In this document: in pieces, positions 19,018-34,397 of the stretch
Position numbering within the stretch: position 1 is the stretch's first letter
How the letters are laid out: the number at the start of each line of letters is the position of its first letter
NCBI GenBank assembly: GCA_017499595.2
Contig: CM038999.1
Span: 496,001-560,000 of the forward strand
Direction of reading: 5' to 3'
DNA: 64,000 nucleotides
Source: Psilocybe cubensis
Lineage: Eukaryota
Made by a program: the position numbers and the translations under genes
The notes under the pieces: model-generated
Seen by the model: only the letters and a program-made list of their open reading frames with translations
The model's database searches: none
Told to the model about the DNA's origin: nothing

Positions 19018-22000
19018 ATGTCAAACCCCCGCAAAAGACGCCGGATCGTCACAAGCACTTCGAATAAAATCTATCGCGACACAATTCCGTTACCAGACAG
19101 TTTTGGCACTGTACGTTCAAGCGAAATCACCGAAGATGGGAGAGTCGATTACTCTACGGTTATCACTGCAAGAGCATGGGAACAAGCCGGATCTTGGGAA
19201 CCTCAAGATGATACGACATTTGCATTGCAACCTAATAGCAGTGAATTTGACCAAGTTGTAGAGGCCGACTTCATGGAGCCTGATCAAGGCTTGGAGGTTG
19301 AAAACTCAATTGATGAGGATCAGGCGGGTATATCAAGCAACTTAGAGCACCCTCCACCTCTAGATAACACGCACATCCCTCTTCAAAAAGCAAAAAGAAG
19401 TTTGGTGTCGGTGAGTCTACCACATACTCGATGATTTGAGTTCCTCATTTATTTGTACACTTCCAGAGACGTCCAAATGTAGTATGGCATTCGTTATATC
19501 GACAGGCATATTTAGAGGAAATTATTCGATGGTCCGGTAGAGGCGACTTTCAGCATCTCAAAGCGTGTTCGGATTGCATTGCTCGTGGGCTCGAAACACC
19601 TGGCGCCGCAGAATATCGATGTAGAGAGTGCTTCTCTCCGGATCTTACGTATCAAACCTGCTGTGTAAAGCGGCATCGACAGCATCCCTTTCACCGTATC
19701 CAAGTAGGTTTGTTTCTTTCTGAACTTTTGACATCATGTCTTATTATCAACGCTTTCCGTTCAGAGATGGACTGGTTCAAACTTTGTCAACATCTCTCTC
19801 AAGACACTCGGCCTCGTAATACAGCTAAACCATGCAAGCTCTCGCTGCGACAACCCCATCAAATGTCACTCAAATATGCTGGTTCTCCATATCAACGGAA
19901 TTCATTCCTGCAACATTCAGTATTGCGGTTGCTCAAGAGAGATTCCACACCATATTCAGCTACTTCGCCGCCGCCTATATCCCGCGTCTCAACTCTCGGT
20001 AGAAACATGTGCAACCTTTGAGTTGCTTCGACATCTTCACAAGATTGCACTTACCACTAAAGCTTCAACGTACGACTTATATCGATGTCTAGAGAAATCG
20101 ACAACAAATATTGGCATCAATGTGCCCAAGTCTCGCTATCGCGCCCTCTTTCGAATGATTCTTCAATGGCGGCATTTGCAGATGCTGAAGTGGGCAGGCC
20201 GAGGACACGATGCTCGTGGGGCGGCAGGAACACTACCAGGAGAATTGATCGTGAAATGCCCCTCCTGTCCACACCCCGGTATCAACTTACCTGACAATTG
20301 GAAGGATGCTCCGGATAACCTAAGGTGAGTAGTAATTTTCCGGCTTTTTCTTCTGCAGTACTAAATATCCAAAGGTTCCTATATGCGGTCATGATATGTC
20401 TCGATGCAAATTTCCGCCTCAAAAATCAAATGGTATCGAACTACTCCCAGGATCCTGGCCTGGGCCTGGGACTTGCATATATGATCCACAGAGACAAATA
20501 TGAGAAATATGTAAAAAGCAAGGCGAATGAGAAGGATGTGAGTCTATAAGTCACTTGCTCATATCTTGGTGTTAATCAAGTAATTTAGATTAGCACCTGC
20601 GTTGGATTTCAAGCACTGGCAAAGGCAAATAGCAAGTTTTCGAAGGGACTGAGATATACAGGAGTTGGTATGGGTGTATGCGGGAGGTCAGAGATGATTT
20701 TAGGGGTTGGAAATCTCCACAAGGGTGAACGGTGTGTGTAGCAAGTTTCAACATATTTCAACCTGCCTAATAGTTTCTTGATTTTAGGTATGCTAACATG
20801 GATTATATTTTCGGAGTGATTCTTCAAGCAATTGCGGTCACCGCCGTTCTCGCTAGCTATGATATTGCATGTCAATGGTTTCTTAACCTCCTAAGACGGA
20901 TCCAGGAGGATTGGCCACCGGAAATCAAACCATCGTCAGCCATCCAGTTTACACCAGCAATTCCAAAACTTCACGCCTCTATGCACAAGCAGTCACACTC
21001 TAACCACGACATCTATTCCCTCAACCTCATTCCTGGTGTTGGACTATCCGATGGCGAGTGTCCGGAACGAGTTTGGGGGCCACATAATGCCCTTGGAAAT
21101 GCCACCAAGACCCAAGGCCCCGGAGCGCGACAAGATACTCTAGATGACCATTTTGGATTTTGGAACTGGATGAAATACTCGTCAATGGGTACAACCCTTT
21201 TGCGACGTTATAGGCAGGCTGTTGCGGACCGAAATATGCAGTCTGAAGGGCATCGCGGTTTAACTGAATCATTAGAAAAAGAAAACAAGGAGTTGGTTGC
21301 AACATGGGAGAAAATGTGCATTGAGTGGGAGAATGACTCTTTTCCAAAGAAAACCGCAAAAAACCCGTACTACATGCCAAGTTTTAGTGAGTTCATCCTT
21401 TACATTGAAGCGACACATTGATTCTGAAACTTTTTTTCCATTAGCTCTTTCTGAGGCCCAGGTTAAAAAGCAGCTTGCTGAGAAAGATGCAGAATACATT
21501 GCTCAAGGAGGAGCATTTCCTCACGCCACGACCGCCTCAATGTTTATTGCACTCGGGCTAGAGCTTGAGGAAGCAATGTGTGTACTTTCTGCCGCTATTA
21601 CCTTTCTTGATCTCACTGAAAATTGTATAGCCGTCGTGTACGTCGGCTTGCTAAGGGTGTTGGGTCTCAGTCAACAATCAGACAGTCTGGGTCTCTGACC
21701 GAGCAACGAAACTCGTTAGCAACTCGGATTCGTTCCTGGGAGCAGCTGCTACCTGTTTACATGCCGGGCATTTTACAGTACCGCACAGATTATCCGGTTA
21801 CCACTCGCTCTATCAATTCCGAAGACACAATCCTTTATCTTCCTTCTTTCGTACCTGAGCCTCACCGTTCTCGCATCTGTGTCCCAGGCCTGGCTCTTAT
21901 AGAGCAGGAACTCCGATTTGCACAACTCTCGGACTCGCTATCCTCCATTCGACAAATTCTTATCATCAAATCACGCATGATCGATTTCAAAAATAAGAAC

Positions 22001-22789
22001 ATTCGGGGCCAACGGGATGGGACTCGGTCGACTACAATCATTGACCGGGTACACGAAAGAGCTCGTTTTGCAGCTTCAAAGTATCGTGCTGCGCGTATCG
22101 CATATCTGGCATTAGCAGGAGAAGGTGACTGGATGGAAACATACCAGGTTTTGGAGGATAAAGATGTCCGAGGGTATCAAGACCCAAACAGGTTACGCAC
22201 GCACGTGGGCAGACGGGGTATATACGAGGATGGGCATGAGCCGATTGCTGGTGGAAGAGAGGAGGTCGAGACAGAGGACGGAGTTACACTTTTGAACCAG
22301 CCAAGGAGCAGGAGGGATGGAACTGGGGAGACGCGAAGAACCCTATCTTGGATATGGTCGGTAAATATCGGTGTCCGCTCTGAAGAAGACAAAGACGATA
22401 TTCTTCGTGTTGAGTGGGCGAAAAGCCGAGCCCGAATGATGCGTGCTAAAGAAGAGGTCATGCTGCTAAAAGAAGAAATGAGACGCACACTCGCCTTCTT
22501 GGAATACAGGAAACAGTGGTGGCTCAAACGTAAATCCGCATGGACAGGTGTCCGTAAGGATTTATTGGAAGGTATATCTGCATTTGCGATTTCTCAGGCA
22601 GATATACAGGACTCTTTGGCTCAACATTTTCGTGCCCTTTGGGCGACACCCTTGGTTGATGGATTTTCCCAGACGCAGGGGGATGATGTTGACGATGATG
22701 AGGCAGAAGGAGAAGAAATGGAGGAAGTGGAGATTCAGGATAATGATGAGGAGGATGTTGACGATATTGTAGAACACCCCCTGTTGTAG
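19018..22789 (+). CDS. CxC2-domain KDZ transposase, 8 predicted exons
   Basis: CxC2 cysteine cluster (CRECF..CCVKRHRQHPFHRIQ; NGIHSCNIQYCGC; CPSCPHPGINLP). KDZ core CLDANFRLKN, KGER/YANMDY, SYDIACQW, DGECPERVW, DTLDDHFGFWNW. C-terminal SWIW and RVEWAKSRAR..EEMRR. Exons join across canonical GT-AG introns. Confidence 0.93.
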
Positions 22790-22845
22790 CTCCTGTATCT
22801 ATTTGTCATCACAAAGAAGTCACCACAATTCTATTTTCAAATATG

Positions 22846-22866
22846 CCTGGACTCTTTAAGTCCAGG
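22846..22866 (-). terminator. Helitron 3' subterminal hairpin (rolling-circle termination signal)
   Basis: Perfect 8-bp stem cctggact-cttta-agtccagg about 50 bp downstream of the RepHel stop. On the minus strand it is followed by CATATTT rather than CTRR. Confidence 0.65.
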
Positions 22867-22917
22867 TTTAGGGTGGTAGCATTTTTCTATAAAAGGAAAT
22901 AGGTGGTCTCGTTCGGT

Positions 22918-25900
22918 CTAGATTGGTCTAGATTGTTCGACGTCGGACTTCGCTATGTTGTCCAATCTGTTTAACTCGTTGCGCAGTTCTTCAGGTAACC
23001 GATTGTATATTTTATTCTTAGGGAACCATCGTAGAACTAGTAATCCAGATATGGATTTTACTCTGGAGAGCATTACATATGCACCTTGACCTCTTGCCGT
23101 TAATAAATCAACAATTACCCTATCAAGTGTGCGACCTTGTCCTTTATAGTCTGTGTACGCATACGCTGGTATTAGTGGGACTTGTTTCCGTGTAAAGCTG
23201 TCAAACAATTTGATATGCTTTTGGTATTTAACATCTATTGAAGTCGAAGAAGGGAAAATTGGAACAACATCTTTTTCTAGCCCGTCTACTTGTATTCCAC
23301 AACCTTTGACGTGTACATACACAGCTTTGCAGTATCGACGGTATTTCTCATCCACTTCATATTTTATGTCTGTGACTATACCCTCAGTGCCATTGACTAT
23401 TTTATCATCGAATGCAATGTTTTCTGTTATCATTACTTTCATTCCAATGAAAAGAGGTAGTTTTCCAAGGGCGTCGTTTGTTTTTGTTGAAGGTAGTCTC
23501 CATAATATCTGTTGGAACTCACCTGTAATCCTTTTTTTGTGTCTCTCATCTCGTGAATAGTATATATGTGGTGATATATTTGCTTTTGTTGAATGGTACT
23601 TGATTAGCTTGGCATTCAGGATGTCTCGTACGGCCTTGTTGCCTACAATGATAGGTGCATCTCTGAACAATGCTAGTGTTTTTGGATTAGAAGCCTGTTT
23701 CTGGATAAGTCTGTTATATATATAATGGTAATCTGACTGTTCATTGTCACTTTTAATATTGTTAATATTACTTCTGCAGAGGCCCAATCTTAGTCTATCA
23801 AGAAAAAGGGCATACTTTATGTCTCTTGCGTGTCTTTCGTTTTTGACTAGTTGTATCACTGTTTTTACTTGTCTCCATAGAAATGCGCCATTTAGTTGTG
23901 ATGGTCCTGACACGTTCCGAGCTTCTGCAAAAGACGGGTTCTTCACCAATTCATTTGCATATAATGGCTTTTGTAGAGGGGGTTTTAGTTGTGCGCAGTC
24001 GCCCATAAATATTACATTAATTCCTCCGAATGGTTTATTGCTGTTAACGACGTCATCTCCTTTCCCTTGCCTAATTCTGATAGAGATTTCACTGAGGAAT
24101 TTTGCGCTTATCATTGAGGTCTCGTCTATTATTAAAGTTTTTATGTATTTCCAAATTTGAATTAGTTTAAGTTTATTGGGTTTTGCTTGTGACTGATTTG
24201 CATGAGATACTATCAGTGAGTGTAGTGTTTGTCCTCCGATCAGCACTGCCGCTATTCCGGTCGGTGCTCCTAATAATAACTCATTCCTGCGATGCAAGCG
24301 CTCGAATAACATAATCAGACATTTTATCAAATGGGATTTACCTGTACCGCCAACGCCTGCAATATGAATCAGCAACTGTTCCTTGTTGTCGGTTATGATA
24401 TGGTTACCGATGATTCGGAACGCCTTTAGCTGTTCTGGGTTATTTAAAAGTCCCATTTCTTCTGCGATGTTGTTCATGGTGTCAGTGTCTGTTATTGAAT
24501 TGTAATTATGACTTAAATCATACAAATCCTGGAGTATAGCTTGCTTGGCAATAGGTGCATAGTTCCCATTGCGATATCGTTTGGGTGGCGTAGTTATGTC
24601 GTCTGTGTCGGGTTCATGTAGCATTGCACGTTTTCTTTTTGATTTCATGATGGCGCGATGGCTTGCTAACAGATCATCCACTTCATGTGATGTTAGAGTT
24701 TGTTGGTTTACTGGAACTGATTTTTGATATTCCGTGTCCACAGCAGTTTCCGTTGTATCCAGTGGGAGACACATGTCTAGAAATCTTGAAGTTTCCTCTC
24801 CTATGTTATCTATGGAGTCGTGTAAGTTTGTTGTAAAGTCTTCGTTGGGGTTTTCAATGCATTGGAAGGGATCTGGAGAGTATACATCGTTAGGGTTGAG
24901 GGTGTCTGTATTACCTTCCGTGTCTGTTAATATTATATCCTGTACTTCATCGGACACTACATCCTCGGATGTTTTTCCACGTCTGCGCTGCCTGTGTGCG
25001 TCGCGGGCCTCGCTACATTCTGTCAAAGCTTGCATGTTCTGTATGATGCGCGTGTGTTCTAGTTTCATTGATATCTCGTAGTTATGAAATGTGTCTGTCC
25101 ATGTTTCTGATGGGGTCTTTAAATCTGATATATCCCTCCACGGTTTGAAGAGGAGTAACATGTCCCTTGCCCAGTCATCTTTTAGTTGATCAGACTTCAA
25201 TGGATTCGGAATAGAAGGGCCTAGTATAATTGGTATACAACTTTTTCTTCTGATTGTCATATAATGGGTGAAATACTCAGGGTGCTCGTCGTTTAAGAAT
25301 GATCCTAGACGTACTGCTGTTTCAATGTGTAACATTTCTTTGGTATACCGTTGTTTGATACCCCATGCTACAAAGTCATACAAACACAAATCTATGAATT
25401 TGTCGTTCGCTGGTCTTAAACAATAGTCCAGTCGTTGGTTGGACGCCGTTATGTCTCTGTCACCCATATTTAACTCAACTGACTCTTCGTTTTCTTGTTC
25501 GTTGGTATTGCTTACGTCGTCTAATGTGCTGTTGTTGGGCGTCTGATTGGATTTAGTGTGATGAGACATGCAAAACCTTCTTATACTGTGCCATTTGAGT
25601 ATAGCAAATTTGTGAGATGTGTAGTGGTCGCCTCCGCCTACTAGATAGCTCATTACTTGTGGTTGTGATATTTCCTGTCTGCCCATCATACTATTAACAG
25701 CTGTTATGATGGCACCCACTGTTTGATTGTCTGATATTTCTGATTGATTTGCGGACATTTTGCTGTACGCTTTACTTACAGCATACGACAACGCGGCCAT
25801 ACCTGCATGAACTGGTAGAGATGCCTTTGTTATATAATCAGTAACATAGTACAAGAACGCTTTTGCTGCATCTCCTGACCCTACGAATTTAATGTCCATG

Positions 25901-28779
25901 TTGCACTGCAATAAGAATGATACTATATCAGTGTGTTGCGCTAATCTTGGATGGTGTCTGCGGAGTAGTATCTCTTTTGTTATTTCGTCTAATGTAGTCT
26001 TTTCCAAGGTCTGCCCATTTATACCCATTCTGCAATTATTGTCTGATTTGGATTGACCTCGTTCAAGGTATTTCCAGCACGTTGCTTGGTGCTCGTGCCA
26101 TGCGTACTGATGTAAGATTCGCTCCAGGAAGAAGTCGAACTCGAGCCAAAATTGGTTTATATCGGTATAATTTTGTGGGGAAGGTGATTGTATTACACCT
26201 GGATGAGGATCACCTGTTTCAGTAGATAGTATTCGTCGGGGGTAATCGTTAGTCTGTTGTTCGGATCCTACTGAGTTTGGAAATTCACATTGAATTATAG
26301 ATTCGATCCACATGAACACTCTTGTTTGATAATGTATTGATCGGGTCATTTCATCGCGTAGTTTCTGGGGAGATAAGTGCCCGTGCAACCAAATCAGCAT
26401 GTGGCAATGTAATGTTCCTTTACCTTGTGCCTCGACAGTACCGTAGTACGCTGTACATTTGCCGTATAAACCATTTTCCTCGCGCCCGTATCGTAATATG
26501 ACGTTAATGAAGTTGTTTATCATTAGGTCAAAAAAACGTGCACATCCTGAAGGGTTCCGTGCTGCAAAGAGTGATCTTCTCCATTTCGTCCAGTCCTCTC
26601 CTCGTTCGATACTTTCCAATGAAATATCCTCACCCGCTAACAGACGTACGATAGGGTTGTCCACGTCAGACGGGTTGATAGTGATGAATAGTGTTGGTGT
26701 TCCTTTATTATTAATCAATGCCCTGATTTGGTTACGTAGAGTTAGTTTGTAGCCATCGCTCCCGGGTACGTGTTTTGATACCAGTCTGATCGAAGACAGT
26801 AGTCTAAAAGCTTCTTTTTCTTTTGTTTCTGTTGGTTTGTAATACGGATTTTTCTCACATTCTTTGGTTAAGTGACTTAACATGTCTAAATCGATATTTA
26901 ACAGTTCGTTAGCTATTTTCTTGTGTGACGATTGGGATACCAAGAAACGTAGACTCTGGGACACTAGTGCCTTCCGACATATGTTATAGAAAATAAACGC
27001 GAATTCTGGGTCTTTCGCAAACGGGCTGTCGTCTACTAAAAGAAGATGTTTGAGTTGTTCCTCCATGCTTATTTTAATCTTTCGTCCGGGATGGTAAAAC
27101 CCTCCGATACCCCAAGGGTCCAGATGGGGGAATAACCATGTCAAGATCGATGGATTTTGAAAGTCAGGTACCATACTAGATCCTGTACCAGAAGCCAGGA
27201 ATGGTTTCCCAGTGAGACATCTCTCCAAAGCAGTTGATTTCATAGTCAGGAATGCCTGTGGTGAGTTGTCTCCAGATGTATATCCTACATTTTCCATCAG
27301 TAATTCATTGTATAATTCGTCCTTTGAATTTTCATCCACATTTCGACATGTATAATCTGCGACGGCTGAGCTGATGGCGTCGTTATCGGTCATAGCGCCT
27401 ATATGTACGGCGTGTGGTATACCCTCGTCTTTGTCGTTGTCAAACAAAAGTCTCATATTCTCTTCGCTGTACTCGGTGCTCGCAGAGTATTCTGGATTTT
27501 CGGTTAATAGAAAGTGTATTATTGTCTTTACCCTCGATCTTCGGACTAAGGTAGGTTTATATCTGTGAATGGTCTTACGGTTAGGTAGATCTTTACCGAT
27601 GAATATAGCACACATTGTGTCCCTTATCGTGTCAGACGCAGGTGGTATAACATTGTTCATGCGTATCACGTCTAGCGGTGATACTAGAACGTTTCCTCTT
27701 ATACCTTTCCTAGCTCGACTCAACGTATTTTCGTTGTCGTCTTTGTCTTCTGTTTGTGTGGTGTGGTTCAATCTGCACGTGATTACACTGGACCGTGCTC
27801 GCGAACATAACATCCTGTCGAAGATAGTTGAATGTTCTATCGCCGTCTTCACGGTTTCTGGTAAACTTTCAATTCCATAATACATCCAGTTACACAAAGC
27901 AAATTTAGGCATAGTGAAGGCCGCTAGTGCTTTGTCACATTTTGGACAGAGACATAGCTTGCCAATACGATCACGGTATTCCATGCCTTTATAATGCAGT
28001 ATGGCCTTTCTGTAAATCTTGATATCATAAGTCTTAGGTAAAATTGAATCTGGCAAGTGTGGATTTTGTAGTAGATTCAGCTTGGTATTGTCTGGGTTTA
28101 CCCATATACAATCGCGCTTGAAAAACCTCAAAGCGCATGCCGCGCATACTACATTGGACAGTCTGTCCGTAGACATTTCTTGTTTCCATTCCCGTATAAT
28201 TTTTAATTTTTCATCTTTCCCGATAGGTTTAAGATGATCTTTGTCGATGGGGACCGCTTTAACTCGATTGGGTTGCTGTGATTCTGTAATCGTATCCGCG
28301 CAGTCTATACCAGGATTGTCTTGTGGTGGGTTGTTCAAATTTTCTTTGGCGACAGTTCGTCTTTCAAAATCGAAATTGCCACACCGTTCTTCGAAAATAC
28401 TGAATATATGTTGACGTGGTCTTGCCATGCATTTGAAAACATATATCAAGTTACTGCATTTGCTACTGCATTGGTGTTCAAATATCTTAGCGAATAGTTT
28501 GGGTTTAGTTAAACGGGAAAATTGTATGCCATGGGAATCGGCTATGGCTTTCATGTCATTCATAGTAAAATATCTGAACCAGAACATCAGTACAGAGATA
28601 CTGACAGTGAATACGAGATTTGTAGTGTCATTTATGTGTTTTATAGCGTCATCATGATAAAGCCATATTGTGGTGAACTTGTAATATTCGTTGAAACGTA
28701 ACACTTTAAGTTTTTCTACATATGGACGGCTATATTCGGGTTTGTACCTGTAGATATCGATATCTGAAATTTCGTCCAA
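22918..28779 (-). CDS. Helitron Rep/PIF1 helicase (RepHel) transposase
   Basis: 1953 open codons. N-terminal Cys clusters (CAAC...CPKC), Rep motifs PTLFITINP, HUH YGTVEAQGKGTLHCHMLIW and YVTDYITK. PIF1 motifs GVGGTGKS, LIIDETS, FGGINVIFMGDCAQLKP, YAYTDYKGQGRTL, YVMLSRV. The ORF begins at TTG, so the true start is probably in upstream exons (donors at ~28920 and ~29035). Confidence 0.96.
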   Translation of the reverse strand: MDEISDIDIYRYKPEYSRPYVEKLKVLRFNEYYKFTTIWLYHDDAIKHINDTTNLVFTVSISVLMFWFRYFTMNDMKAIADSHGIQFSRLTKPKLFAKIFEHQCSSKCSNLIYVFKCMARPRQHIFSIFEERCGNFDFERRTVAKENLNNPPQDNPGIDCADTITESQQPNRVKAVPIDKDHLKPIGKDEKLKIIREWKQEMSTDRLSNVVCAACALRFFKRDCIWVNPDNTKLNLLQNPHLPDSILPKTYDIKIYRKAILHYKGMEYRDRIGKLCLCPKCDKALAAFTMPKFALCNWMYYGIESLPETVKTAIEHSTIFDRMLCSRARSSVITCRLNHTTQTEDKDDNENTLSRARKGIRGNVLVSPLDVIRMNNVIPPASDTIRDTMCAIFIGKDLPNRKTIHRYKPTLVRRSRVKTIIHFLLTENPEYSASTEYSEENMRLLFDNDKDEGIPHAVHIGAMTDNDAISSAVADYTCRNVDENSKDELYNELLMENVGYTSGDNSPQAFLTMKSTALERCLTGKPFLASGTGSSMVPDFQNPSILTWLFPHLDPWGIGGFYHPGRKIKISMEEQLKHLLLVDDSPFAKDPEFAFIFYNICRKALVSQSLRFLVSQSSHKKIANELLNIDLDMLSHLTKECEKNPYYKPTETKEKEAFRLLSSIRLVSKHVPGSDGYKLTLRNQIRALINNKGTPTLFITINPSDVDNPIVRLLAGEDISLESIERGEDWTKWRRSLFAARNPSGCARFFDLMINNFINVILRYGREENGLYGKCTAYYGTVEAQGKGTLHCHMLIWLHGHLSPQKLRDEMTRSIHYQTRVFMWIESIIQCEFPNSVGSEQQTNDYPRRILSTETGDPHPGVIQSPSPQNYTDINQFWLEFDFFLERILHQYAWHEHQATCWKYLERGQSKSDNNCRMGINGQTLEKTTLDEITKEILLRRHHPRLAQHTDIVSFLLQCNMDIKFVGSGDAAKAFLYYVTDYITKASLPVHAGMAALSYAVSKAYSKMSANQSEISDNQTVGAIITAVNSMMGRQEISQPQVMSYLVGGGDHYTSHKFAILKWHSIRRFCMSHHTKSNQTPNNSTLDDVSNTNEQENEESVELNMGDRDITASNQRLDYCLRPANDKFIDLCLYDFVAWGIKQRYTKEMLHIETAVRLGSFLNDEHPEYFTHYMTIRRKSCIPIILGPSIPNPLKSDQLKDDWARDMLLLFKPWRDISDLKTPSETWTDTFHNYEISMKLEHTRIIQNMQALTECSEARDAHRQRRRGKTSEDVVSDEVQDIILTDTEGNTDTLNPNDVYSPDPFQCIENPNEDFTTNLHDSIDNIGEETSRFLDMCLPLDTTETAVDTEYQKSVPVNQQTLTSHEVDDLLASHRAIMKSKRKRAMLHEPDTDDITTPPKRYRNGNYAPIAKQAILQDLYDLSHNYNSITDTDTMNNIAEEMGLLNNPEQLKAFRIIGNHIITDNKEQLLIHIAGVGGTGKSHLIKCLIMLFERLHRRNELLLGAPTGIAAVLIGGQTLHSLIVSHANQSQAKPNKLKLIQIWKYIKTLIIDETSMISAKFLSEISIRIRQGKGDDVVNSNKPFGGINVIFMGDCAQLKPPLQKPLYANELVKNPSFAEARNVSGPSQLNGAFLWRQVKTVIQLVKNERHARDIKYALFLDRLRLGLCRSNINNIKSDNEQSDYHYIYNRLIQKQASNPKTLALFRDAPIIVGNKAVRDILNAKLIKYHSTKANISPHIYYSRDERHKKRITGEFQQILWRLPSTKTNDALGKLPLFIGMKVMITENIAFDDKIVNGTEGIVTDIKYEVDEKYRRYCKAVYVHVKGCGIQVDGLEKDVVPIFPSSTSIDVKYQKHIKLFDSFTRKQVPLIPAYAYTDYKGQGRTLDRVIVDLLTARGQGAYVMLSRVKSISGLLVLRWFPKNKIYNRLPEELRNELNRLDNIAKSDVEQSRPI

Positions 28780-29192
28780 CGCGTGAAATCGGAATTAATC
28801 CGTGTCAATTTAAATTCATTTAATATCAAGTTTCAAGTTTAACCAGATTTGAATTGGATACAAGGTGACGAATCGAATTTTTCATCAGCGATAATTCCCA
28901 TAGGTAAAACGATTACTTACCGCGTTGCAGAGTCGACGCTTTCAACGACGATACCGTGTTTTGTGTGTTAATATAAGTGGTCTGCGTTGTGTAATTTGAC
29001 AGATAGTTCTACTATAAGTTTTTGTAAGCGCTCACCATTCTTCAATATATCTGGAAATGGGTCTGTCGGGGCGTTGGTGTTGATTTTATCTGTTCTGGTC
29101 TTTTGTCTTATTTAAATAGGGTGTACTCGTTTATATAGAGTTTTGTCTGTGTATGGTATCTGGTACTGTTACTGAAATTCGTTCAATGATTC

Positions 29193-29604
29193 TTTAATTG
29201 GGTCCAGTCACGAACTGTTCATGTAACACCAAGTAGGCGACACTTTGTCCGCCGTGTGTTGTTATTTTGTTTGGTTGTTAGATCATATGAGTAATAGCAA
29301 CTATCACGCTAACTAGTCAGCACTTTTACCCATCGTGGGAGGAAGTGTACGTGTTTATGTTTACGTGATGACGTATGCAAGTATTACTGTCACTTAGCTT
29401 GTGTTTAATTGGGTCCAGTCACGAACTGCTCACGTAACACCAAGTAAGCAACACTTTGTCCGCCGTGTGTTGTTATTTTGTTTGGTTGTCAGATCATATG
29501 AGTAATAGCAACTATCACGCTAACTAGCCAGCACTTTTACCCATCGTGGGAGGAAGTGTACGTGCTTATGTTTACGTGATGATGTATGCAAGTCTTAGCT
29601 CGTG
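29193..29604 (+). repeat. Tandem duplication, period 211 bp, two near-identical copies
   Basis: tttaattgggtccagtcacgaactg... starts at 29193 and at 29404, with only scattered substitutions through ...gtatgcaagt. Confidence 0.92.
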
Positions 29605-29717
29605 TTGTAAGTGACGGTGTATTGCATTCTGAGTCTCTTTATGTGTAAACCGCGACGTAGATTTAAGGTCAGGTCGTCAGACAGAGTCAGTGTGCACAAG
29701 TTCACAGCTCCATTGTT

Positions 29718-31032
29718 ATGGCGAATCTTGGTGAGCGCCTCAAATGTCGCGGTTTGTTGTGTTTGTAATGTTATGATAGAGATTCATAGGTTCTCTCCCG
29801 CTCGAATTCTTATTCTTGATGTGCAGGAGCGACTACTCGCTAAGGATTCGCGGCGTTTTGTTCTCTTTCCCATTCGGTACATTAAGGTGTTGTTGTTAAT
29901 GTAACATTTTTTCCTTCGGGACTAACTTTGTTTGAATTGCCTTGGAACTGCCCTGTTCAGATTTGGAAAGCATACTTGCATGCTGTGACGACGTTATGGG
30001 AAGCACGTTGTGCTGGTTTATCACGTGACTCTAAGGATTGGACTGAGTGTCTGTCATTCCAACAACGATGCGGTGGCATCTTCTTTTTCAAACTTTCTAT
30101 TGCTTCTCATGGGATACATAAGCGACTATTGGATATAATCTCCAAAGAAATTACAGTCCCAGAAGCACATTGCTATTTCAGTTTCCAGTCGGTCAAGTGG
30201 GTGTGAATTTTTTATACATGGATTTATCTCAGGATTCGATTAACAACGTTCTAACAGTGAAAACGTCCACCAGGAGGCGATGGCCAAGATTACGCACGGT
30301 CTCACAGGAATTCGAATGGACGATTGCGTCGATGAATGGGAACTCTTGCGTCCAAAGGAAAAATTTATGAATATTTGGACGAGATCTTCCGTGTATCCTT
30401 TCTCTGAGAGGTTGCTCGTTTTTATATTCATTCAAGGAATATTTGGTATTTCTCTGTCCCGGCTTCTACAATGGTTTTCTGGCAAAGATTACCTCCCAAC
30501 TATGGTATCTACTTACACCCGGATCTTCAATGACAGGGAATGTCATGTAGACTTTGTCTCGCTGCTTTTTTATCATTTGAAAAGGCGTCCGTTAACCAGT
30601 TTTGTCAACGAATTCGTCGGGACCATTGTTAAAATCGAAAAAAAATTCGGCAGTGGTATGATAATGGTTTGTTTTTTAATGGTCCGTGTCTGATTAGCAT
30701 GCTGAATATTATAGATTTGCTGGACCTTTCCGAGATAGACATTCCATTAGACGACCTGAATCGGTACGTGGAATGCAAAGCAGACGCCCTTCTGGTGTCT
30801 CTTGGGTACAAGCAATTGTACGGTACATGTAACAAAGTATGACATTGTTTGTCTGAATTTGGGATTCAGTTGACGAGTTTTTAGGGGATCGATGATCTTA
30901 TCCCTATCGTCCCTGGGGAACTGAAAGCTGGTTTTTTTTCTCGAGGAGATGGCGCTGGCGTATATCCCCCCAACTATGGAAGACGCTATTTTAGACGGAC
31001 AGTTCGGTAATCATCTCCTTGACCTTTCTTGA
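29718..31032 (+). CDS. Highly diverged ribonucleotide reductase small (R2/beta) subunit homolog, predicted catalytically dead
   Basis: Six exons collinear with RNR2: ERLLAKDSRRFVLFPIRY / IWKAY...PEAHCYFSFQ / ENVHQEAM...FSERLLVFIFIQGIF...NDRECHVDF...YHLKRRP / YVECKADALLVSLG / KAGFF. A T8 run at 30932-30939 may shift the frame of the final codons. Confidence 0.85.
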
Positions 31033-31333
31033 ACATGTTATATGGTTTATTCATACTTTTTGTTGATGTAATATCTATGTACCCGCTACTGAAGGGTAAA
31101 TCCTAGACACCGTGGAATAATACAACTTCCTGTTGAAATTAAACCCTTGTCATAGAGTTCTGGATGGGAAGGTGAATACTGTTTCATTCCAATTATCCGT
31201 CTGTGGTGATTTTGCGCTCTTTAGACTGTATGCCCAGTATCAATCTCGGAAAACTCCAAGCGCGTGGCAATCTATCAGTTCATATTACTGTGACTATCCA
31301 CCCAACCAATGTCCACTTATTATGCTGTGACTA

Positions 31334-31490
31334 ATGTACTCCCACCCCGCGCCCGCGCAGGCGCAGGCGGCACAGCCCAAAGCACCTGAAAACGAGCTCT
31401 TCTCGTTCGACTTCCACGCACCGTCTCTGGTGCAGAACACGGCTGTGATGGAGCAGCCGAAGAAAGACGTGAAGCAGAATATTTTGTCGT
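31334..31490 (+). pseudogene. GC-rich captured exon fragment resembling the C-terminal region of fungal Age2/SMAP-type ArfGAP
   Basis: ENELFSFDFHAP...PKKDVKQNILS, an isolated GC-rich island with no ArfGAP zinc finger nearby. Confidence 0.45.
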
Positions 31491-31676
31491 TTACATTAAT
31501 CAGCGTTTGTACGCTGCCTCTGTTTTCTTGTGATTATGATAGACATTAAAATTTCATGTAGACTGTAGGTTGTACAGACTTTCTCATGCTTGGATTAGGG
31601 TATGTACCTCAATGGGTATCTTGGTATCGCTGTGCTTTTCTATACCGCTTCACTGGCGGACTCGTGTTACTCTAGG

Positions 31677-33500
31677 AGAAGATGGTATGTATGAAGATGT
31701 TCTACGCTTTTGGATGGACAAAGACAAAGAAGGCAACACACCCGACGCGTTGCAGGAGGTTATCGAGCATCTCATGTACCAAGGAAAGGCCTGTCCTCAT
31801 CTATACTCGCTTGTTCTGAGGTTCTTGACCTCGACGCCGGAGCTGCTTAACCGACATCAAACTGGTTTGAAGGACATCCTGGAGCATATCGACGATGTGC
31901 AATTGATTCTCCTTGGGAGTCTTACAAGTTTTGAGTCGAAATGGAGTGGCGAGTGTCGGTTTAATGAAGCAATGGTTGATCAAGACGATCAAGGAAAGTA
32001 GGAGTGAAATTCAGAATGTAAGTTTCCCTTTCTATTTAATCTGTTCGTTGTTTTTCCTTTCGTAGGATCAAGCTCTCACGAAATCGTATCGTCTGGAGAT
32101 CGTTGACAGGATAAAGCAATTTGCTGAATTGACAAACACAGAAGAGTCTCGGGTGTTCTATGACAAGGTGCTCCAGTTACATCGACCAGCTCGATCTTCC
32201 CAGCGTGCACTTCATGTGTAACCGTTCTTATCATCCATGGTATGTATTGTGTGTATATCTTCTTCTGCGTGTCTTCTGTACGTGTATTCCTCTAATTGCC
32301 ATTCGCTTGCTCGTAGGTACATCGCGGACGGGCACTGGAAAATGTCAGTGCAATGTCAGTGCGGTCAGTGCATGTCAGTGCATACCACAGCAATGTCAGT
32401 GTAAACTGCAGTGATGTCAGTGCAGTGTCAGTGCATGTTTCAAATCATCTATAAATTGGTCAGGGTGTGTCAGTGCGTCCTGGGTTATGTTAGTGCGTTG
32501 GTTAGTTCATTGTGTGGTGGCAAAGTTTTTACTTGTTAGATTGAAAGTCGTGGGCCGTGAGAAAGTTAACTTAGGGAGGATTAAAACATACAGTCTCGGA
32601 ATTTATGGGCCAGACATGGCTAAATAACAAGATATAGAAGTAGACATATATTTTCTACATTTTCAAATAACGATCCGGTGTACTAAATCAAGCATAGATG
32701 TTGGAAAATGAATGAATTATGCTGGAATCATTAGATAGACGCCTCAGAGTATCCCTGTGTATAAATGATCCAATATGCTTGTTTGACAATGATTTGGGAT
32801 CATACTTGGCTGCAGGCGCAACAATGCTTTGAAATATTGGCCTTAGCTTGGGTGCGGTTTTTTAGTAGGGAGGACGTCCCTATGACACAGCTAAAAGGGA
32901 AAGGGAACTAGAAAGTCCCATCGGTGCATCCTAGTTGAGCAGGTCTTTGGGACAGCTGATGGACCAGAGGTAATTCATACCAGTCTACCTACCTACCATT
33001 GTGTTCTTCGTTTGAAATAAAAGATAACATGATTATAAGGTAAAAATAATGTCAGTGCATCGTCAGTGCACCATTACTGAAAGTCAGTTTATGTCAGTGC
33101 ATGTGAGTGCACCGTCAGTGCATGTGAGTGCATCGTCAGTGCATGTAAGTGCACCGTCAGTGCATGTCAGTGCACAGTCAGTGCAAATGCTTGGCGGTCA
33201 GTGCATGTGTCAGTGCATCAACTCTTGGCAGTCAGTGTTAAAATAATTCTAGGAGGATACTAGATTTCCAGACACTTAAAATCCGGTCAAAATCCATCTA
33301 AGTAATCCTGCAATAAACATAGTTTTATTGTATAGAAGTACAGACTTCAATTTTTTCACAAATCCTAAGTGATGTCAGTGCATGTCAGTGCATAGACATT
33401 ATATTGTCAGTGAATGTCAGTGCCGACGTGCACTTACATGCACTGACATGCACTGACATTTCTTGTTGCCCATCGCGGACAACGAAGTCGGTAATAACAT
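31677..33500 (+). pseudogene. VPS11: Vps11/Pep5 C-terminal fragment (intron-retaining, frameshifted, split by a MITE)
   Basis: MYEDVLRFWMDK...LYSLVLRFLTSTPELL; QVLSRNGVASVGLMKQWL; DQALTKSYRLE; RING remnant TRCSS...LDLPSVHFMCNRSYH. IAD/NE continues across the MITE. Confidence 0.75.
32330..33471. mobile_element. Non-autonomous Mutator-like (MULE) MITE, 1142 bp
   Basis: 9-bp TSD atcgcggac at 32321-32329 and 33472-33480. Imperfect TIRs gggcactggaaaatgtcagtgca / tgcactgacatttcttgttgccc. Dozens of gtcagtgca(t) motifs. Confidence 0.9.
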
Positions 33501-34302
33501 GGAGATTTGTTTGAAGGGCGGTGGTGTTATACCAACGTCTGTCTGTCCGGAATGCGGTGAAGCTAATAGAGGAGTATTTCACATGTTGCTTGACACAAAT
33601 ACTGTAGATTCACGTTTCGAAGGAATCCTCAGGGACATGGGCGTCACTGATCGAGTTTTCTACTGACACAGACAGTGTATCTCATGACAAACGTGGTCTT
33701 ATATTTCTGAACCTGGTGAAATGATAGTTTAAATAAATAAATGTCATATGCAATGAAGCTCATGTACTTTGTACTGAATCGCGAACGATCGCAAAGCAAC
33801 CTCCATCAACTTAAATAATTCCCGTGATTGAAAGGAAGTGGGTTTTGTGGTTTTTTTTTTAATCGCCAAATTTTGGCGCGTTGGGTCGTGTCTCTGCAAC
33901 CATTTACATAAACTCATACGTTTCACGGTCAAATTCGGTCCGCTGATCCTCTTTTTCCTTGTGCAGTTTCCGTGTGGCAATGTTTTGTTTCACGAACTCT
34001 TTCGTTGTTGACCCATGTATCGTTGCTTATGGTCTGCTTTTATATTGAGATAGCCTCCAGGCCTGTGTCTGTCCCGTTTGACTCTGTAAATACCCATTCT
34101 TTACTGTTTCGCTTTCCTTTAAATTTCTACGCTTGTTCTTCGTTGTATCGCTGCTATTGACCATTTTTAACAGTGACATCACTCCTAACCTATCTCTTAC
34201 GTCTGCTGTGCGATTTGTCGTATTGTCGGAGGAGTTAGATGTCGACTCAGTCATTGGCGATAGTTAGTTGCCTGTTTGTGAAGTGTATAAGGTGCGTGTC
34301 TG

Positions 34303-34353
34303 TTTTTTTTTTTTTTTTTTTTAGTTGTATTCTAATCCTCAATACCTGATTAT

Positions 34354-34397
<44 letters not shown>
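34303..34397 (-). repeat. Two poly(T) tracts (20 and 43 nt), possible retroposed poly(A) tails
   Basis: T runs at 34303-34322 and 34355-34397, followed by a duplicated ~31-bp motif cctac.aattgcttaat..catgccttacaa. Confidence 0.75.

What the first reader, a model, noticed from the sequence alone, without database searches (positions are those of the whole stretch)
29718..31032. RNR small-subunit pseudoenzyme kept open and spliced, head-to-head with RepHel
Aligned by eye to eukaryotic R2: AASDG->IASHG (Asp ligand to His), ENIHSETY->ENVHQEAM (radical Tyr to Met), VEGIF->IQGIF (Glu to Gln), RDEGLH->NDRECH (Glu to Arg). Three of six di-iron ligands and the tyrosyl radical are lost, yet the exons stay stop-free with canonical introns despite heavy divergence. 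The neighbouring Vps11 fragment shows the opposite pattern: similar to the host gene but frameshifted. Yeast Rnr4 is a known ligand-deficient beta-prime subunit. Inference: a transposon-borne R2 mimic under selection, which could heterodimerise with host R2 or titrate RNR inhibitors to alter dNTP supply for rolling-circle replication.
Basis: partly seen in the sequence, partly recalled or inferred. Interest (0 to 1): 0.82.

Follow-up and report, generated by a model that had tools for sequence, protein, structure and literature searches.

The report
Dead RNR subunit carried by Helitron
A rolling-circle transposon (Helitron) of the mushroom Psilocybe cubensis carries an intact-looking but catalytically dead copy of the small subunit of ribonucleotide reductase, which belongs to a small, old and so far undescribed branch of that protein family.

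Summary
Window 29718-31032 (+) is a six-exon gene with five GT-AG introns. Its product is a full-length homologue of the ribonucleotide reductase small subunit (R2): Pfam PF00268 E=1.1e-42, AlphaFold2 pLDDT 85.9, Foldseek best match human RRM2. Three of six metal ligands are replaced (Asp>His, Glu>Gln, Glu>Arg) and the radical Tyr is Met.

The organism is Psilocybe cubensis. The same protein (P0001, 340 aa) is annotated on 3 contigs, always next to the same neighbour gene.

Read and contig depth shows that RepHel, the R2-like gene and the host-gene fragment form one repeat unit. It has about four copies in run X9. Its left end lies at a hairpin just beyond the RepHel stop codon.

The T8 run is peculiar to the window's copy: 67 of 70 reads of another strain have T7.

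Nothing else in 1.84 billion representative proteins exceeds 32% identity. Two unnamed proteins (P0062, P0162) share Gln, Arg, an aliphatic residue at the Tyr site and a private C-terminal motif, and they form a clade with P0001. This points to long-term selection on a non-enzymatic protein.

Transcription, the right end of the element and the mechanism remain untested. Verdict: real, a new variant of known kinds, moderately high interest.

The parts
22839..22866 (-). Helitron 3' end: perfect hairpin (stem CCTGGACT / AGTCCAGG, 22846-22866) followed by CATATTT. The repeat unit ends at about 22839-22845.
   Evidence: Sequence read. In X9 the single-copy flank contig (depth 5.7) reaches 22872 and the multi-copy contig (depth 24.9) starts at 22903. 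X12 depth goes from 0 to about 73 between the bins 22340-22799 and 22800-23259, and a joint lies at 22845. The exact terminal base is inferred, not shown.
22918..28794 (-). RepHel open frame, 1958 codons from stop to stop, first ATG at 28587
   Evidence: ORF. Helitron_like_N E=6e-36, DUF6570 9.2e-25, PIF1 1.2e-22. (ATG).
29193..29597 (.). 211-bp unit repeated 1.9 times (95% identical), in the 1,130-bp spacer between the two divergent genes
29718..29730 (+). R2-like exon 1 (MANL + 1 nt)
   Evidence: matches P0001
29780..29886 (+). R2-like exon 2. Codon 19 is GTG (Val) here and GCG (Ala) in all other copies (29822 T>C, a CpG site).
29961..30196 (+). R2-like exon 3. It holds IASHG (Asp ligand > His90).
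30258..30655 (+). R2-like exon 4. It holds ENVHQEAM (Glu120 and His123 kept, Tyr > Met127), IQGIF (Glu > Gln178) and NDRECH (Glu > Arg212, His215 kept).
30715..30836 (+). R2-like exon 5
30885..31032 (+). R2-like exon 6. Stop at 31032 in the T7 frame of the other copies, and at 31010 in the window's own T8 frame.
30932..30939 (+). T8 run, one T more than in other copies. It shifts the frame of the last 30 codons in this copy.
   Evidence: 'left out 1' in 67 of 70 X12 reads and in the X9 contig..
31331..32243 (+). It changes frame near 32160.
   Evidence: Minority reads carry extra letters at 31907, 31913 and 32162 (6 of 56, 8 of 52, 9 of 72). The name Vps11 was not verified.
32330..33471 (.). 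Nested high-copy element with inverted ends (GGGCA...TGCCC), GTCAGTGCA-type internal repeats and a 9-bp target duplication ATCGCGGAC
   Evidence: Sequence. (tandem repeats); depth 175-410 against about 50, and loose ends at 32329/32330 and 33471/33472 in 71-294 reads with low agreement.
33474..34355 (+). Rest of the captured fragment and further sequence that still belongs to the repeat unit. The right end of the element lies at or beyond 34355.
   Evidence: X9 contig 19 has depth 22.8, covers 33606-34290 and runs 87 nt further. An X14 contig and about a third of X12 reads differ at 21 of 236 positions in 33518-33753 (a second, diverged genomic copy).

Best explanation
Shown:
1. The gene is part of an autonomous Helitron of Psilocybe cubensis, at least 11.5 kb long and running from about 22843 to beyond 34355 on the minus strand. 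The element consists of RepHel, a divergently oriented R2-like gene 1.1 kb upstream of it, and a frameshifted fragment of another gene that holds a nested small transposon.
2. The R2-like protein keeps the whole R2 fold. It lacks half of the di-iron ligands (His90, Gln178 and Arg212 replace Asp, Glu and Glu) and the radical tyrosine (Met127). It therefore cannot generate or store the tyrosyl radical.
3. It belongs to a small deep clade with two unnamed relatives that share these replacements and a private C-terminal motif.
4. The window's own copy is a slightly decayed member, with a T8 frameshift, V19 and CpG>TpG changes. Other copies are intact.

Inferred:
1. The clade has been kept by selection as a non-catalytic protein. 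It is an accessory gene of the element, as RPA-like genes are of plant Helitrons, and not a passenger.
2. It acts by binding the host's RNR. The most likely mode is pairing with host R2 through the ordinary R2 dimer interface to give a half-dead beta-beta' pair, which would change RNR activity.

My own guess, untested: the useful effect for the element is lower dNTP supply and more single-stranded DNA at forks, which is the substrate of the HUH nuclease. Extra dNTPs for copying 11 kb seem a less likely benefit.
For: R2 homology and fold: E=1.1e-42, profile 1-276 of 281; yeast Rnr2 2.8e-38; pLDDT 85.9, pTM 0.85; human RRM2 3olj/3vpn, TM 0.89 on the target, rmsd 1.9 A over 276 columns.

Dead site. 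Only 19 of 36 positions that are invariant or nearly so in 55 canonical R2s are kept.

Transposon-borne:
- P0001 is on 3 contigs. Its accessions KAH9474294, KAH9477364 and KAH9479911 are each followed by the neighbour's KAH..295, ..365 and ..912.
- There are two further annotated copies, P0003 (the window's) and P0004.
- X9 contig depths are 4-7.2 in the flank, 24.9 over RepHel, 20.6 over the R2-like gene and 22.8 at 33606-34290.
- X12 depth is level (45-73) from 22800 to 32000, while the left flank has none. The element therefore sits elsewhere in that strain.

Old and constrained:
- The best non-self hits among 1.84 billion representatives are 28-32% identical. Agaricomycete RNR2 is 31-32% identical.
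- The gene still has 340 stop-free codons and 5 canonical introns.
- P0062 (30% identical over 242 columns) and P0162 (34%) share ENVH-EA with I/L for Tyr, (I/V)QG(I/L)F and DRExH. P0062 shares the tail F(L/V)EEMxxAYxxP...D. The three form a clade with SH-aLRT 99.
- P0062 and P0162 are 53% identical to each other.
- Homology in both starts at the exon-4 boundary. In P0162 it ends at the exon-4 end with the same S-G-M read-through that the window's frame gives. This suggests shared intron positions.

Binding: the co-fold of P0001 (18-300) with Agaricus RNR2 P0157 (76-372) scored 0.89, against a best of 3 controls of 0.49. That mark was reached by 51 of 78 solved complexes and 2 of 108 mismatched pairs. 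The runs agree in at least 97% of contacts and the partner's pLDDT is at least 84. Similar complexes are solved (R2 dimers, 1jk0), so this shows likeness and not that this copy binds.
Against: - No transcript evidence of any kind was obtained.
- The window's own copy is frameshifted.
- The copies are too alike for dN/dS: one codon change and one indel in the coding sequence.
- The clade has only three members, and the genomic context of the two unnamed ones could not be seen. Whether they are Helitron-borne is unknown.
- Scans of metagenome contigs and viral contigs found no further member.
- The predicted interface residues are not clearly more conserved towards canonical R2 than the rest: 11 of 27 against 78 of 250 identical, Fisher p=0.39.
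- The tail of P0001 ends ...FGNHLLDLS. Canonical R2 ends ...D(E/A)DF and P0062 ends ...FDGLDF. R1 binding may therefore be lost.
- The right end of the element was not mapped, and canonical 5'-TC/3'-CTRR ends were not found.
- The clade sits on a very long branch (warns about long rows).
Confidence: 0.6

Rival explanations
1. It is a passenger relic. An R2 gene was picked up by the Helitron and is drifting. The frames are open only because the present copies are young duplicates of one lucky copy.
For: The window copy carries a frameshift and CpG decay. The copies are nearly identical, so their openness is one observation and not five. Helitrons are known to carry gene fragments, and this one carries a broken fragment next door. 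Fungal Helitron 'captured genes' of unknown function are on record (PMC4289320, passages read).
Against: At about 31% identity to any R2, neutral drift should have left many stops in 340 codons and broken some of the 5 introns. None is seen in the consensus copy. The fold is predicted with high confidence. Two relatives 30-36% identical keep the same derived residues and tail motif. Drift does not produce that.
Confidence: 0.17
2. It is a host gene, an Rnr4-like beta' subunit that the fungus needs, and it merely lies beside a Helitron or was duplicated with it recently.
For: Ligand-poor R2 partners with a host function exist. Yeast Rnr4 (PDB 1jk0_B/1sms) has Tyr, Arg and Tyr in place of His, Glu and His, as read from the alignment. 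The same Glu>Arg replacement is seen here. The co-fold with canonical R2 passes.
Against: All five annotated copies are the Helitron-linked type, and its depth is not above that of RepHel (20.6 against 24.9), so there is no extra host copy. No orthologue turned up in any other named fungus in the two protein collections, although canonical RNR2 of Agaricus, Scleroderma and Laetiporus did. The Rnr4 orthologue P0011 groups with canonical opisthokont R2 and not with this clade.
Confidence: 0.08
3. It is a dead RNR subunit put to a use that has nothing to do with RNR, for example silencing escape, DNA-damage signalling or a scaffold for the transposase. The R2 fold serves only as a stable helical bundle.
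For: The tail that canonical R2 uses to bind R1 has changed. A new conserved motif, F(L/V)EEMxxAY, has appeared. The interface residues are not specially conserved. Recalled, from no call: herpesvirus R1 homologues that lost catalysis serve other purposes.
Against: There is no positive evidence for any other partner. The N-terminal RRFVLFPI strand of the dimer interface is identical to canonical R2.
Confidence: 0.15

Closest known systems
Yeast Rnr4 (beta' subunit; PDB 1jk0 chain B, 1sms)
   Same: A eukaryotic R2 homologue that keeps the fold but lacks 3 of 6 metal ligands. One replacement is the same, Glu>Arg in RDEGLH (Rnr4 RDRGAY, here NDRECH). It pairs with a canonical R2 in a solved heterodimer, and the co-fold here uses the same kind of interface.
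   Different: The other lost ligands differ: Rnr4 has His>Tyr twice, this protein has Asp>His and Glu>Gln. Rnr4 keeps Tyr at the radical position, and here it is Met (Ile and Leu in the relatives). Rnr4 keeps the ...DDDF tail. Rnr4 is a single-copy essential host gene (recalled). The Rnr4 orthologue is not in this clade, so the likeness is convergent.
RPA-like genes of plant Helitrons (PHRPA; Roffler, Menardo and Wicker 2015, PMC4683698, abstract read)
   Same: A homologue of a conserved host replication protein is carried as a second gene by Helitrons. It forms its own clade off the 'core' host proteins and is old.
   Different: The protein is different (single-strand binding protein against RNR subunit). 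PHRPA is widespread in monocots and dicots, while this clade has three known members. PHRPA is not reported there as a dead enzyme.
Accessory or 'captured' genes of fungal Helitrons: capA-F of Pleurotus HELPO1 (PMC4289320, passages read) and the upstream, opposite-strand ORF of Fusarium FoHeli elements (PMC5148889, passages read)
   Same: Agaricales and Fusarium Helitrons carry whole extra genes. In FoHeli the extra ORF lies upstream of the transposase in opposite orientation, as here. HELPO1 cap genes are transcribed.
   Different: Those genes have no known domains or origin, and HELPO1 cap genes lie downstream of RepHel. Here the gene has a clear ancestry (R2). The word 'reductase' does not occur in PMC4289320.
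Metal-free class Ie R2 (R2e QSK/VPK; PMC11846895, abstract and passages read)
   Same: Three metal-binding carboxylates are replaced, one of them by a basic residue (Lys there, Arg here). This shows that ligand loss alone does not prove inactivity.
   Different: R2e is bacterial and derives from class Ib. It needs the neighbouring Tyr, which becomes a DOPA radical, and it needs NrdI. Here the Tyr itself is gone in all three clade members.

Membership tests
RNR small subunit superfamily (Pfam PF00268, ferritin-like R2 fold) | Sequence and fold homology over the whole domain | tested here: met
   E=1.1e-42, 146.7 bits against a cut-off of 33.6, profile 1-276 of 281; pLDDT 85.9. TM 0.89-0.90 to human and mouse R2.
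Catalytically competent class Ia R2 | Six metal ligands Asp, Glu, His, Glu, Glu, His | tested here: not met
   The residues are His90, Glu120, His123, Gln178, Arg212 and His215.
Catalytically competent class Ia R2 | Radical-bearing Tyr four residues after the His of ExxH | tested here: not met
   Met127. Relatives have Ile (P0062) and Leu (P0162).
Catalytically competent class Ia R2 | C-terminal R1-binding peptide ending ...D-x-D-F | tested here: inconclusive
   P0001 ends ...ILDGQFGNHLLDLS. P0062 ends ...INFDGLDF. Canonical ends are ...FTIDEDF and ...FSLDEDF. The window's T8 copy loses the tail altogether. No R1 sequence was at hand to test binding.
Yeast Rnr4-type beta' | Common descent with Rnr4 | tested here: not met
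   P0011 is an Rnr4 orthologue (7e-132 to 1jk0_B against 1.1e-109 to Rnr2). It groups with P0005 and P0147 inside canonical opisthokont R2. P0001, P0062 and P0162 form a separate clade, SH-aLRT 99 (quick tree, 40 of about 160 available rows, long branches).
Yeast Rnr4-type beta' | Forms a heterodimer with the canonical R2 of its host | tested here: inconclusive
   Co-fold 0.89 against a best control of 0.49. This was with an Agaricus stand-in, similar complexes are solved, and the interface is not specially conserved.
Autonomous Helitron | One ORF with a Rep (HUH) domain and a Pif1-type helicase | tested here: met
   Helitron_like_N 6e-36, PIF1 1.2e-22, in a 1958-codon open frame.
Autonomous Helitron | Subterminal 3' hairpin, defined termini, several copies at different sites | tested here: inconclusive
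   The hairpin at 22846-22866 and the depth step at about 22843 are met. Several copies are met. A CTRR end was not found (CATATTT follows the hairpin, which resembles the ATATTTT ends of FoHeli1/2 in PMC5148889). The 5' end was not mapped. One 10-nt inverted match at 36017 is what chance gives.
Helitron accessory gene (as opposed to a neighbour) | Lies inside the element and is copied with it | tested here: met
   It has the same multi-copy depth as RepHel in X9 (20.6 against 24.9; flank 4-7) and in X12. It has the same neighbour gene at 3 loci by consecutive accessions. Caveat: the right terminus was not seen.
Class Ie metal-free R2 | Tyr kept and converted to DOPA; derived from class Ib; NrdI partner | tested here: not met
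   The Tyr is absent. The best structural and sequence matches are eukaryotic class Ia R2.

The most novel reading that the evidence does not exclude
Helitrons of some fungi have domesticated a dead R2 subunit as a tool against their host. The protein poisons or re-tunes ribonucleotide reductase by forming half-dead dimers. That slows forks and exposes the single-stranded DNA that the HUH transposase needs. The Glu>Arg plug in the empty metal site evolved independently of the one in yeast Rnr4. This would be the first transposon-encoded modulator of nucleotide metabolism in eukaryotes.
Probability: 0.15. Interest if true: 0.85.

Novelty: new variant of a known kind. Interest (0 to 1): 0.62.

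Why it matters
Helitrons are known for picking up host gene pieces. Extra genes that they keep for themselves are few: RPA-like genes in plants, endonuclease and OTU domains in Helentrons (recalled), and unnamed cap genes in fungi.

An RNR subunit that has lost its chemistry but kept its shape for a long time would be a new kind of Helitron accessory gene. It would also be a second, independent case of a beta'-type dead R2 after yeast Rnr4. It links a transposon to the enzyme that sets dNTP supply, and this link can be tested directly in yeast or in vitro.

It also corrects the public annotation. These genes are named 'Ribonucleoside-diphosphate reductase small chain', but they cannot be that enzyme.

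My searches found no paper that describes an RNR small subunit inside a Helitron. 'Helitron' plus 'ribonucleotide reductase' gave 12 papers, none on this by title or abstract; I read passages of one of them, PMC7928374. 'Ribonucleotide reductase', 'small subunit' and 'pseudoenzyme' gave 0 papers. 'Psilocybe cubensis', 'transposable element' and 'Helitron' gave 1 unrelated paper.

Tried and rejected
- Whole genome of the window: not held. Other copies could not be aligned and the element's 5' end could not be mapped.
- Expression: no RNA holder was listed for 29600-32300. Run X14, whose RNA label is a guess, laid only 3 contigs, none on RepHel or the R2-like gene. This says nothing either way.
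- Further clade members:
  - The metagenome scan with the 3-sequence alignment matched 168 pattern stretches, none confirmed.
  - The metagenome scan with P0062 alone matched 28, none confirmed.
  - The viral-contig scan matched 33, none confirmed.
  - Word-index protein searches added only P0162.
- 'Vps11' name: P0002 and its pieces gave nothing above noise.
  - PDB: best hit oligo-1,6-glucosidase, E=0.032.
  - Pfam: best hit zf-C3H2C3, E=0.01, below its cut-off.
  - ESM Atlas: best score 0.76, an unnamed cluster.
- Helitron2-type inverted terminal repeat: one 10-mer (22870 against 36017) where about 0.6 are expected by chance. Rejected as evidence.
- Interface conservation as support for heterodimerisation: not significant, p=0.39.
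- Earlier notes of this scan: nothing by place, sequence or words.
- Huang and Elledge 1997 on RNR4 (PMC232460): not held. The Rnr4 residues were read from the PDB alignment instead.
- Origin of the clade inside fungi: it cannot be placed. The branch is too long, and the tree root falls on it only by the midpoint rule. The only hints are a slightly higher score to Agaricomycete RNR2 (146-154 bits against 136 or less for others) and the shared LLxKDSRRFVLFPI stretch.
Full report
**What is there**

The stretch 29718-31032 on the + strand holds a split gene. Three frames hit consecutive parts of the Pfam model of the ribonucleotide reductase small chain (profile positions 11-89, 91-240, 240-276).

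A word-index search with exon 4 found a 340-aa protein, P0001. It is 100% identical over the query and is named 'Ribonucleoside-diphosphate reductase small chain [Psilocybe cubensis]'. P0001 gave me the gene model, which I checked base by base:
- exons 29718-29730, 29780-29886, 29961-30196, 30258-30655, 30715-30836 and 30885-31032;
- introns of 49, 74, 61, 59 and 48 nt, all GT..AG.

P0001 matches PF00268 at E=1.1e-42 over 276 of 281 profile positions and yeast Rnr2 (1smq_A) at 2.8e-38. An AlphaFold2 model built on a 75-row alignment has mean pLDDT 85.9 and pTM 0.85. Its best Foldseek matches are human, yeast and mouse R2, with TM 0.89-0.90 on the target and rmsd about 1.9 A.

**The active site**

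I compared P0001 with solved yeast Rnr2 and human p53R2 and with 33 other homologues in a careful alignment. The ligands read His90 (Asp in canonical R2), Glu120, His123, Gln178 (Glu), Arg212 (Glu) and His215. The radical tyrosine is Met127.

In the fast alignment of the 149 other hits, 118 have the canonical E,H,Y,E,E,H. Of 36 positions that are invariant or nearly so in 55 canonical R2s, P0001 keeps 19. Among the lost ones are two Phe residues (the P0157 positions Phe146 and Phe252, both Ser in P0001); as I recall, Phe residues line the radical pocket in canonical R2, but no call maps these two positions to it.

Metal-free class Ie R2 shows that loss of carboxylates need not kill the enzyme, but that class depends on the tyrosine (PMC11846895). 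Here the tyrosine is gone, so the protein cannot be a radical-generating R2.

**The T run**

With T8, as in the window, the product is 333 aa with 23 unrelated C-terminal residues.

In raw reads of another strain (X12), 67 of 70 reads have T7. The contig of X9 has T7 as well. The annotated protein of the window's own locus (P0003, 468 aa, Val19) is a model fused to the neighbour gene that skips the last exon. This fits a T8 that is really present in that assembly.

Fourteen sites are listed in the element where all X12 reads differ from the window. At 13 of them the window has T or A where the others have C or G, and 8 are CpG in the others. That table is truncated.

The window's copy is therefore a slightly decayed member of a family whose other copies are intact. 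Alternatively the T8 is an assembly error; reads of the source sample would tell.

**It travels with the Helitron**

The frame 22918-28794 (-) has Helitron_like_N, DUF6570 and PIF1 domains. Its first ATG (28587) lies 1,130 bp from the R2-like ATG, on the other strand. A 211-bp unit repeated 1.9 times lies between them.

P0001 is found letter for letter on 3 contigs. Its three GenBank accessions are each followed by the next number for the neighbour protein P0002. Two more annotated copies exist, P0003 and P0004.

Contig depths in run X9 are:
- 4-7.2 in the left flank;
- 24.9 over 22903-29269 (RepHel);
- 20.6 over 29535-31837 (the R2-like gene);
- 22.8 at 33606-34290, on a contig that runs on to about 34377.

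This gives roughly four copies of one block. In X12 the depth is 45-73 from 22800 to 32000 and 46 at 33840-34290. The left flank (20500-22799) has no reads at all. That flank is a KDZ transposon (CxC2 4e-36, KDZ 1.1e-27). The block therefore exists in that strain at other places.

The left edge of the block falls at about 22839-22845, directly after a perfect hairpin (22846-22866) downstream of the RepHel stop codon. This is where a Helitron 3' end belongs. A CTRR end is not there. CATATTT follows the hairpin, which recalls the ATATTTT ends of the Helitron2-like FoHeli elements (PMC5148889). The right end is at or beyond 34355 and was not mapped.

**The neighbour**

31331-32243 and 33474-33666 are pieces of another gene, interrupted at 32330-33471 by a small element. 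That element has a high copy number, inverted ends and a 9-bp target duplication.

A minority of X12 reads carry extra letters at 31907, 31913 and 32162. About a third of the reads, and one X14 contig, differ at 21 of 236 positions in 33518-33753. A second, diverged copy that keeps those letters therefore exists in the genome, presumably the parent gene. No tool confirmed the name Vps11.

**How old, and is it constrained?**

A full HMMER pass over 1.84 billion representatives gave 1,575 hits at E<=0.001. Apart from P. cubensis's own fragment, the best are 28-32% identical. Canonical RNR2 of Agaricus, Scleroderma and Laetiporus are 30-32% identical.

Among the hits, two unnamed proteins stand out.
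- P0062 (260 aa) has ENVHREAI, FIQGLF and DRENH. Its tail KAAYFVEEMTFAYVHPSPHDDALD matches P0001's KAGFFLEEMALAYIPPTMEDAILD, which no canonical R2 has.
- P0162 (174 aa) has ENVHREAL, VQGLF and DRETH.

In a tree of 40 rows the three form a clade with SH-aLRT 99. They are apart from the Rnr4 orthologue P0011, which sits with canonical opisthokont R2. This is a quick tree with long branches, so the shared derived characters are the better argument.

P0062 and P0162 are 53% identical to each other. In both, similarity begins exactly where exon 4 begins here. In P0162 it ends where exon 4 ends, with the same Ser-Gly-Met read-through into the intron that the window's own frame shows. I take this as a sign of shared intron positions, that is, a eukaryotic intron-bearing gene family. 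This is inference.

Three lineages that far apart keep open frames, the same replacements at three catalytic positions and a private tail motif in the T7 frame. That argues for long selection on a protein that is not an enzyme. dN/dS among the P. cubensis copies is useless, because they differ by one codon and one indel.

**How it may work**

The R2 fold dimerises, and yeast uses a ligand-poor R2 (Rnr4) as the partner of the active Rnr2. Read from the PDB alignment, Rnr4 has His>Tyr, Glu>Arg and His>Tyr. The Glu>Arg change is at the same position as Arg212 here, evidently by convergence.

A co-fold of P0001 (18-300) with Agaricus RNR2 (76-372) scored 0.89 against a best control of 0.49.
- The mark was reached by 51 of 78 solved complexes and 2 of 108 mismatched pairs.
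- The runs agree in at least 97% of contacts, and the partner's pLDDT is at least 84.
- The interface is the ordinary R2 dimer interface.
- Because such dimers are solved, this shows likeness only.
- The interface residues are not significantly better conserved than the rest.

The R1-binding tail is recognisable in P0062 (...FDGLDF) but altered in P0001 (...LLDLS).

My best reading is a beta'-like subunit that pairs with host R2 and changes RNR output. The direction of the effect, and the benefit to the element, are open. This is a guess.

**Comparison with what is known**

- Plant Helitrons keep an RPA-like gene that forms its own old clade (PMC4683698, abstract).
- Pleurotus HELPO1 elements carry transcribed 'captured genes' of unknown origin (PMC4289320, passages).
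- Fusarium FoHeli elements have an extra ORF upstream of the transposase and opposite to it (PMC5148889, passages).

None of these is an RNR subunit, and my literature searches found no report of one. The public name of these genes is misleading, because they cannot be the reductase subunit.

**Verdict**

It is a new variant of two known kinds, Helitron accessory genes and dead R2 subunits. Interest 0.62.

Noticed in passing
window 19440-22789 (+): A KDZ (Kyakuja-Dileera-Zisupton) transposon abuts the Helitron's 3' end: CxC2 domain E=4e-36 and KDZ transposase E=1.1e-27. This stretch has no reads at all in strain X12 but single-copy depth in X9, so it is an insertion polymorphism between strains.
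   Followed up: partly
window 32330-33471: A 1.14-kb non-coding element with inverted ends (GGGCA...TGCCC), a 9-bp target duplication ATCGCGGAC and arrays of GTCAGTGCA-type 10-21-bp repeats. Its read depth is about 4-8 times that of the Helitron, and loose ends point to many different flanks. It looks like a MITE, perhaps Mutator-like to judge by the 9-bp duplication (recalled).
   Followed up: partly
window 22965-32297: Of 14 listed sites where the window's Helitron copy differs from all reads of another strain, 13 are C/G in the others and T/A in the window, and 8 lie in CpG. This is the signature of deamination of methylated cytosine in a silenced copy.
   Followed up: partly
window 29193-29597: A 211-bp unit repeated 1.9 times (95% identical) sits in the spacer between the divergent RepHel and R2-like genes. 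It could be a duplicated promoter or regulatory piece.
   Followed up: no
window 22800-23700: The 3'-terminal roughly 900 bp of the Helitron has higher depth than the interior (X12 about 72 against about 50; X9 bin 29.6 against 24.9). X12 also has a joint 22845/24161 on opposite strands. Truncated or rearranged copies that share the 3' end probably exist.
   Followed up: no
proteins P0051, P0152, P0005, P0147, P0070, P0144 and others (one search hits): Other ligand-poor R2 homologues are scattered in the databases. One pair, the green alga Ostreobium (P0152) and P0051, has Glu>Gln and Glu>Arg but keeps Tyr and the ...D(A/E)DF tail. P0005 and P0147 group with the Rnr4 orthologue. In the fast alignment, 31 of 149 hits deviate at one or more of six positions, some of them perhaps through misalignment.
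   Followed up: partly
window 34300-34397: Two long T runs (about 24 and 43 T) lie near where the multi-copy contig of X9 ends. They may mark the target site or the 5' end region of the Helitron.
   Followed up: no
window 31121-31330 and protein P0003: The public gene model for this locus (468 aa) fuses the R2-like gene to the neighbouring fragment through a small exon (…LNR|VLDGK|AQAAQ…). This is evidently a way round the T8 frameshift, so the model is an annotation artefact.
   Followed up: partly
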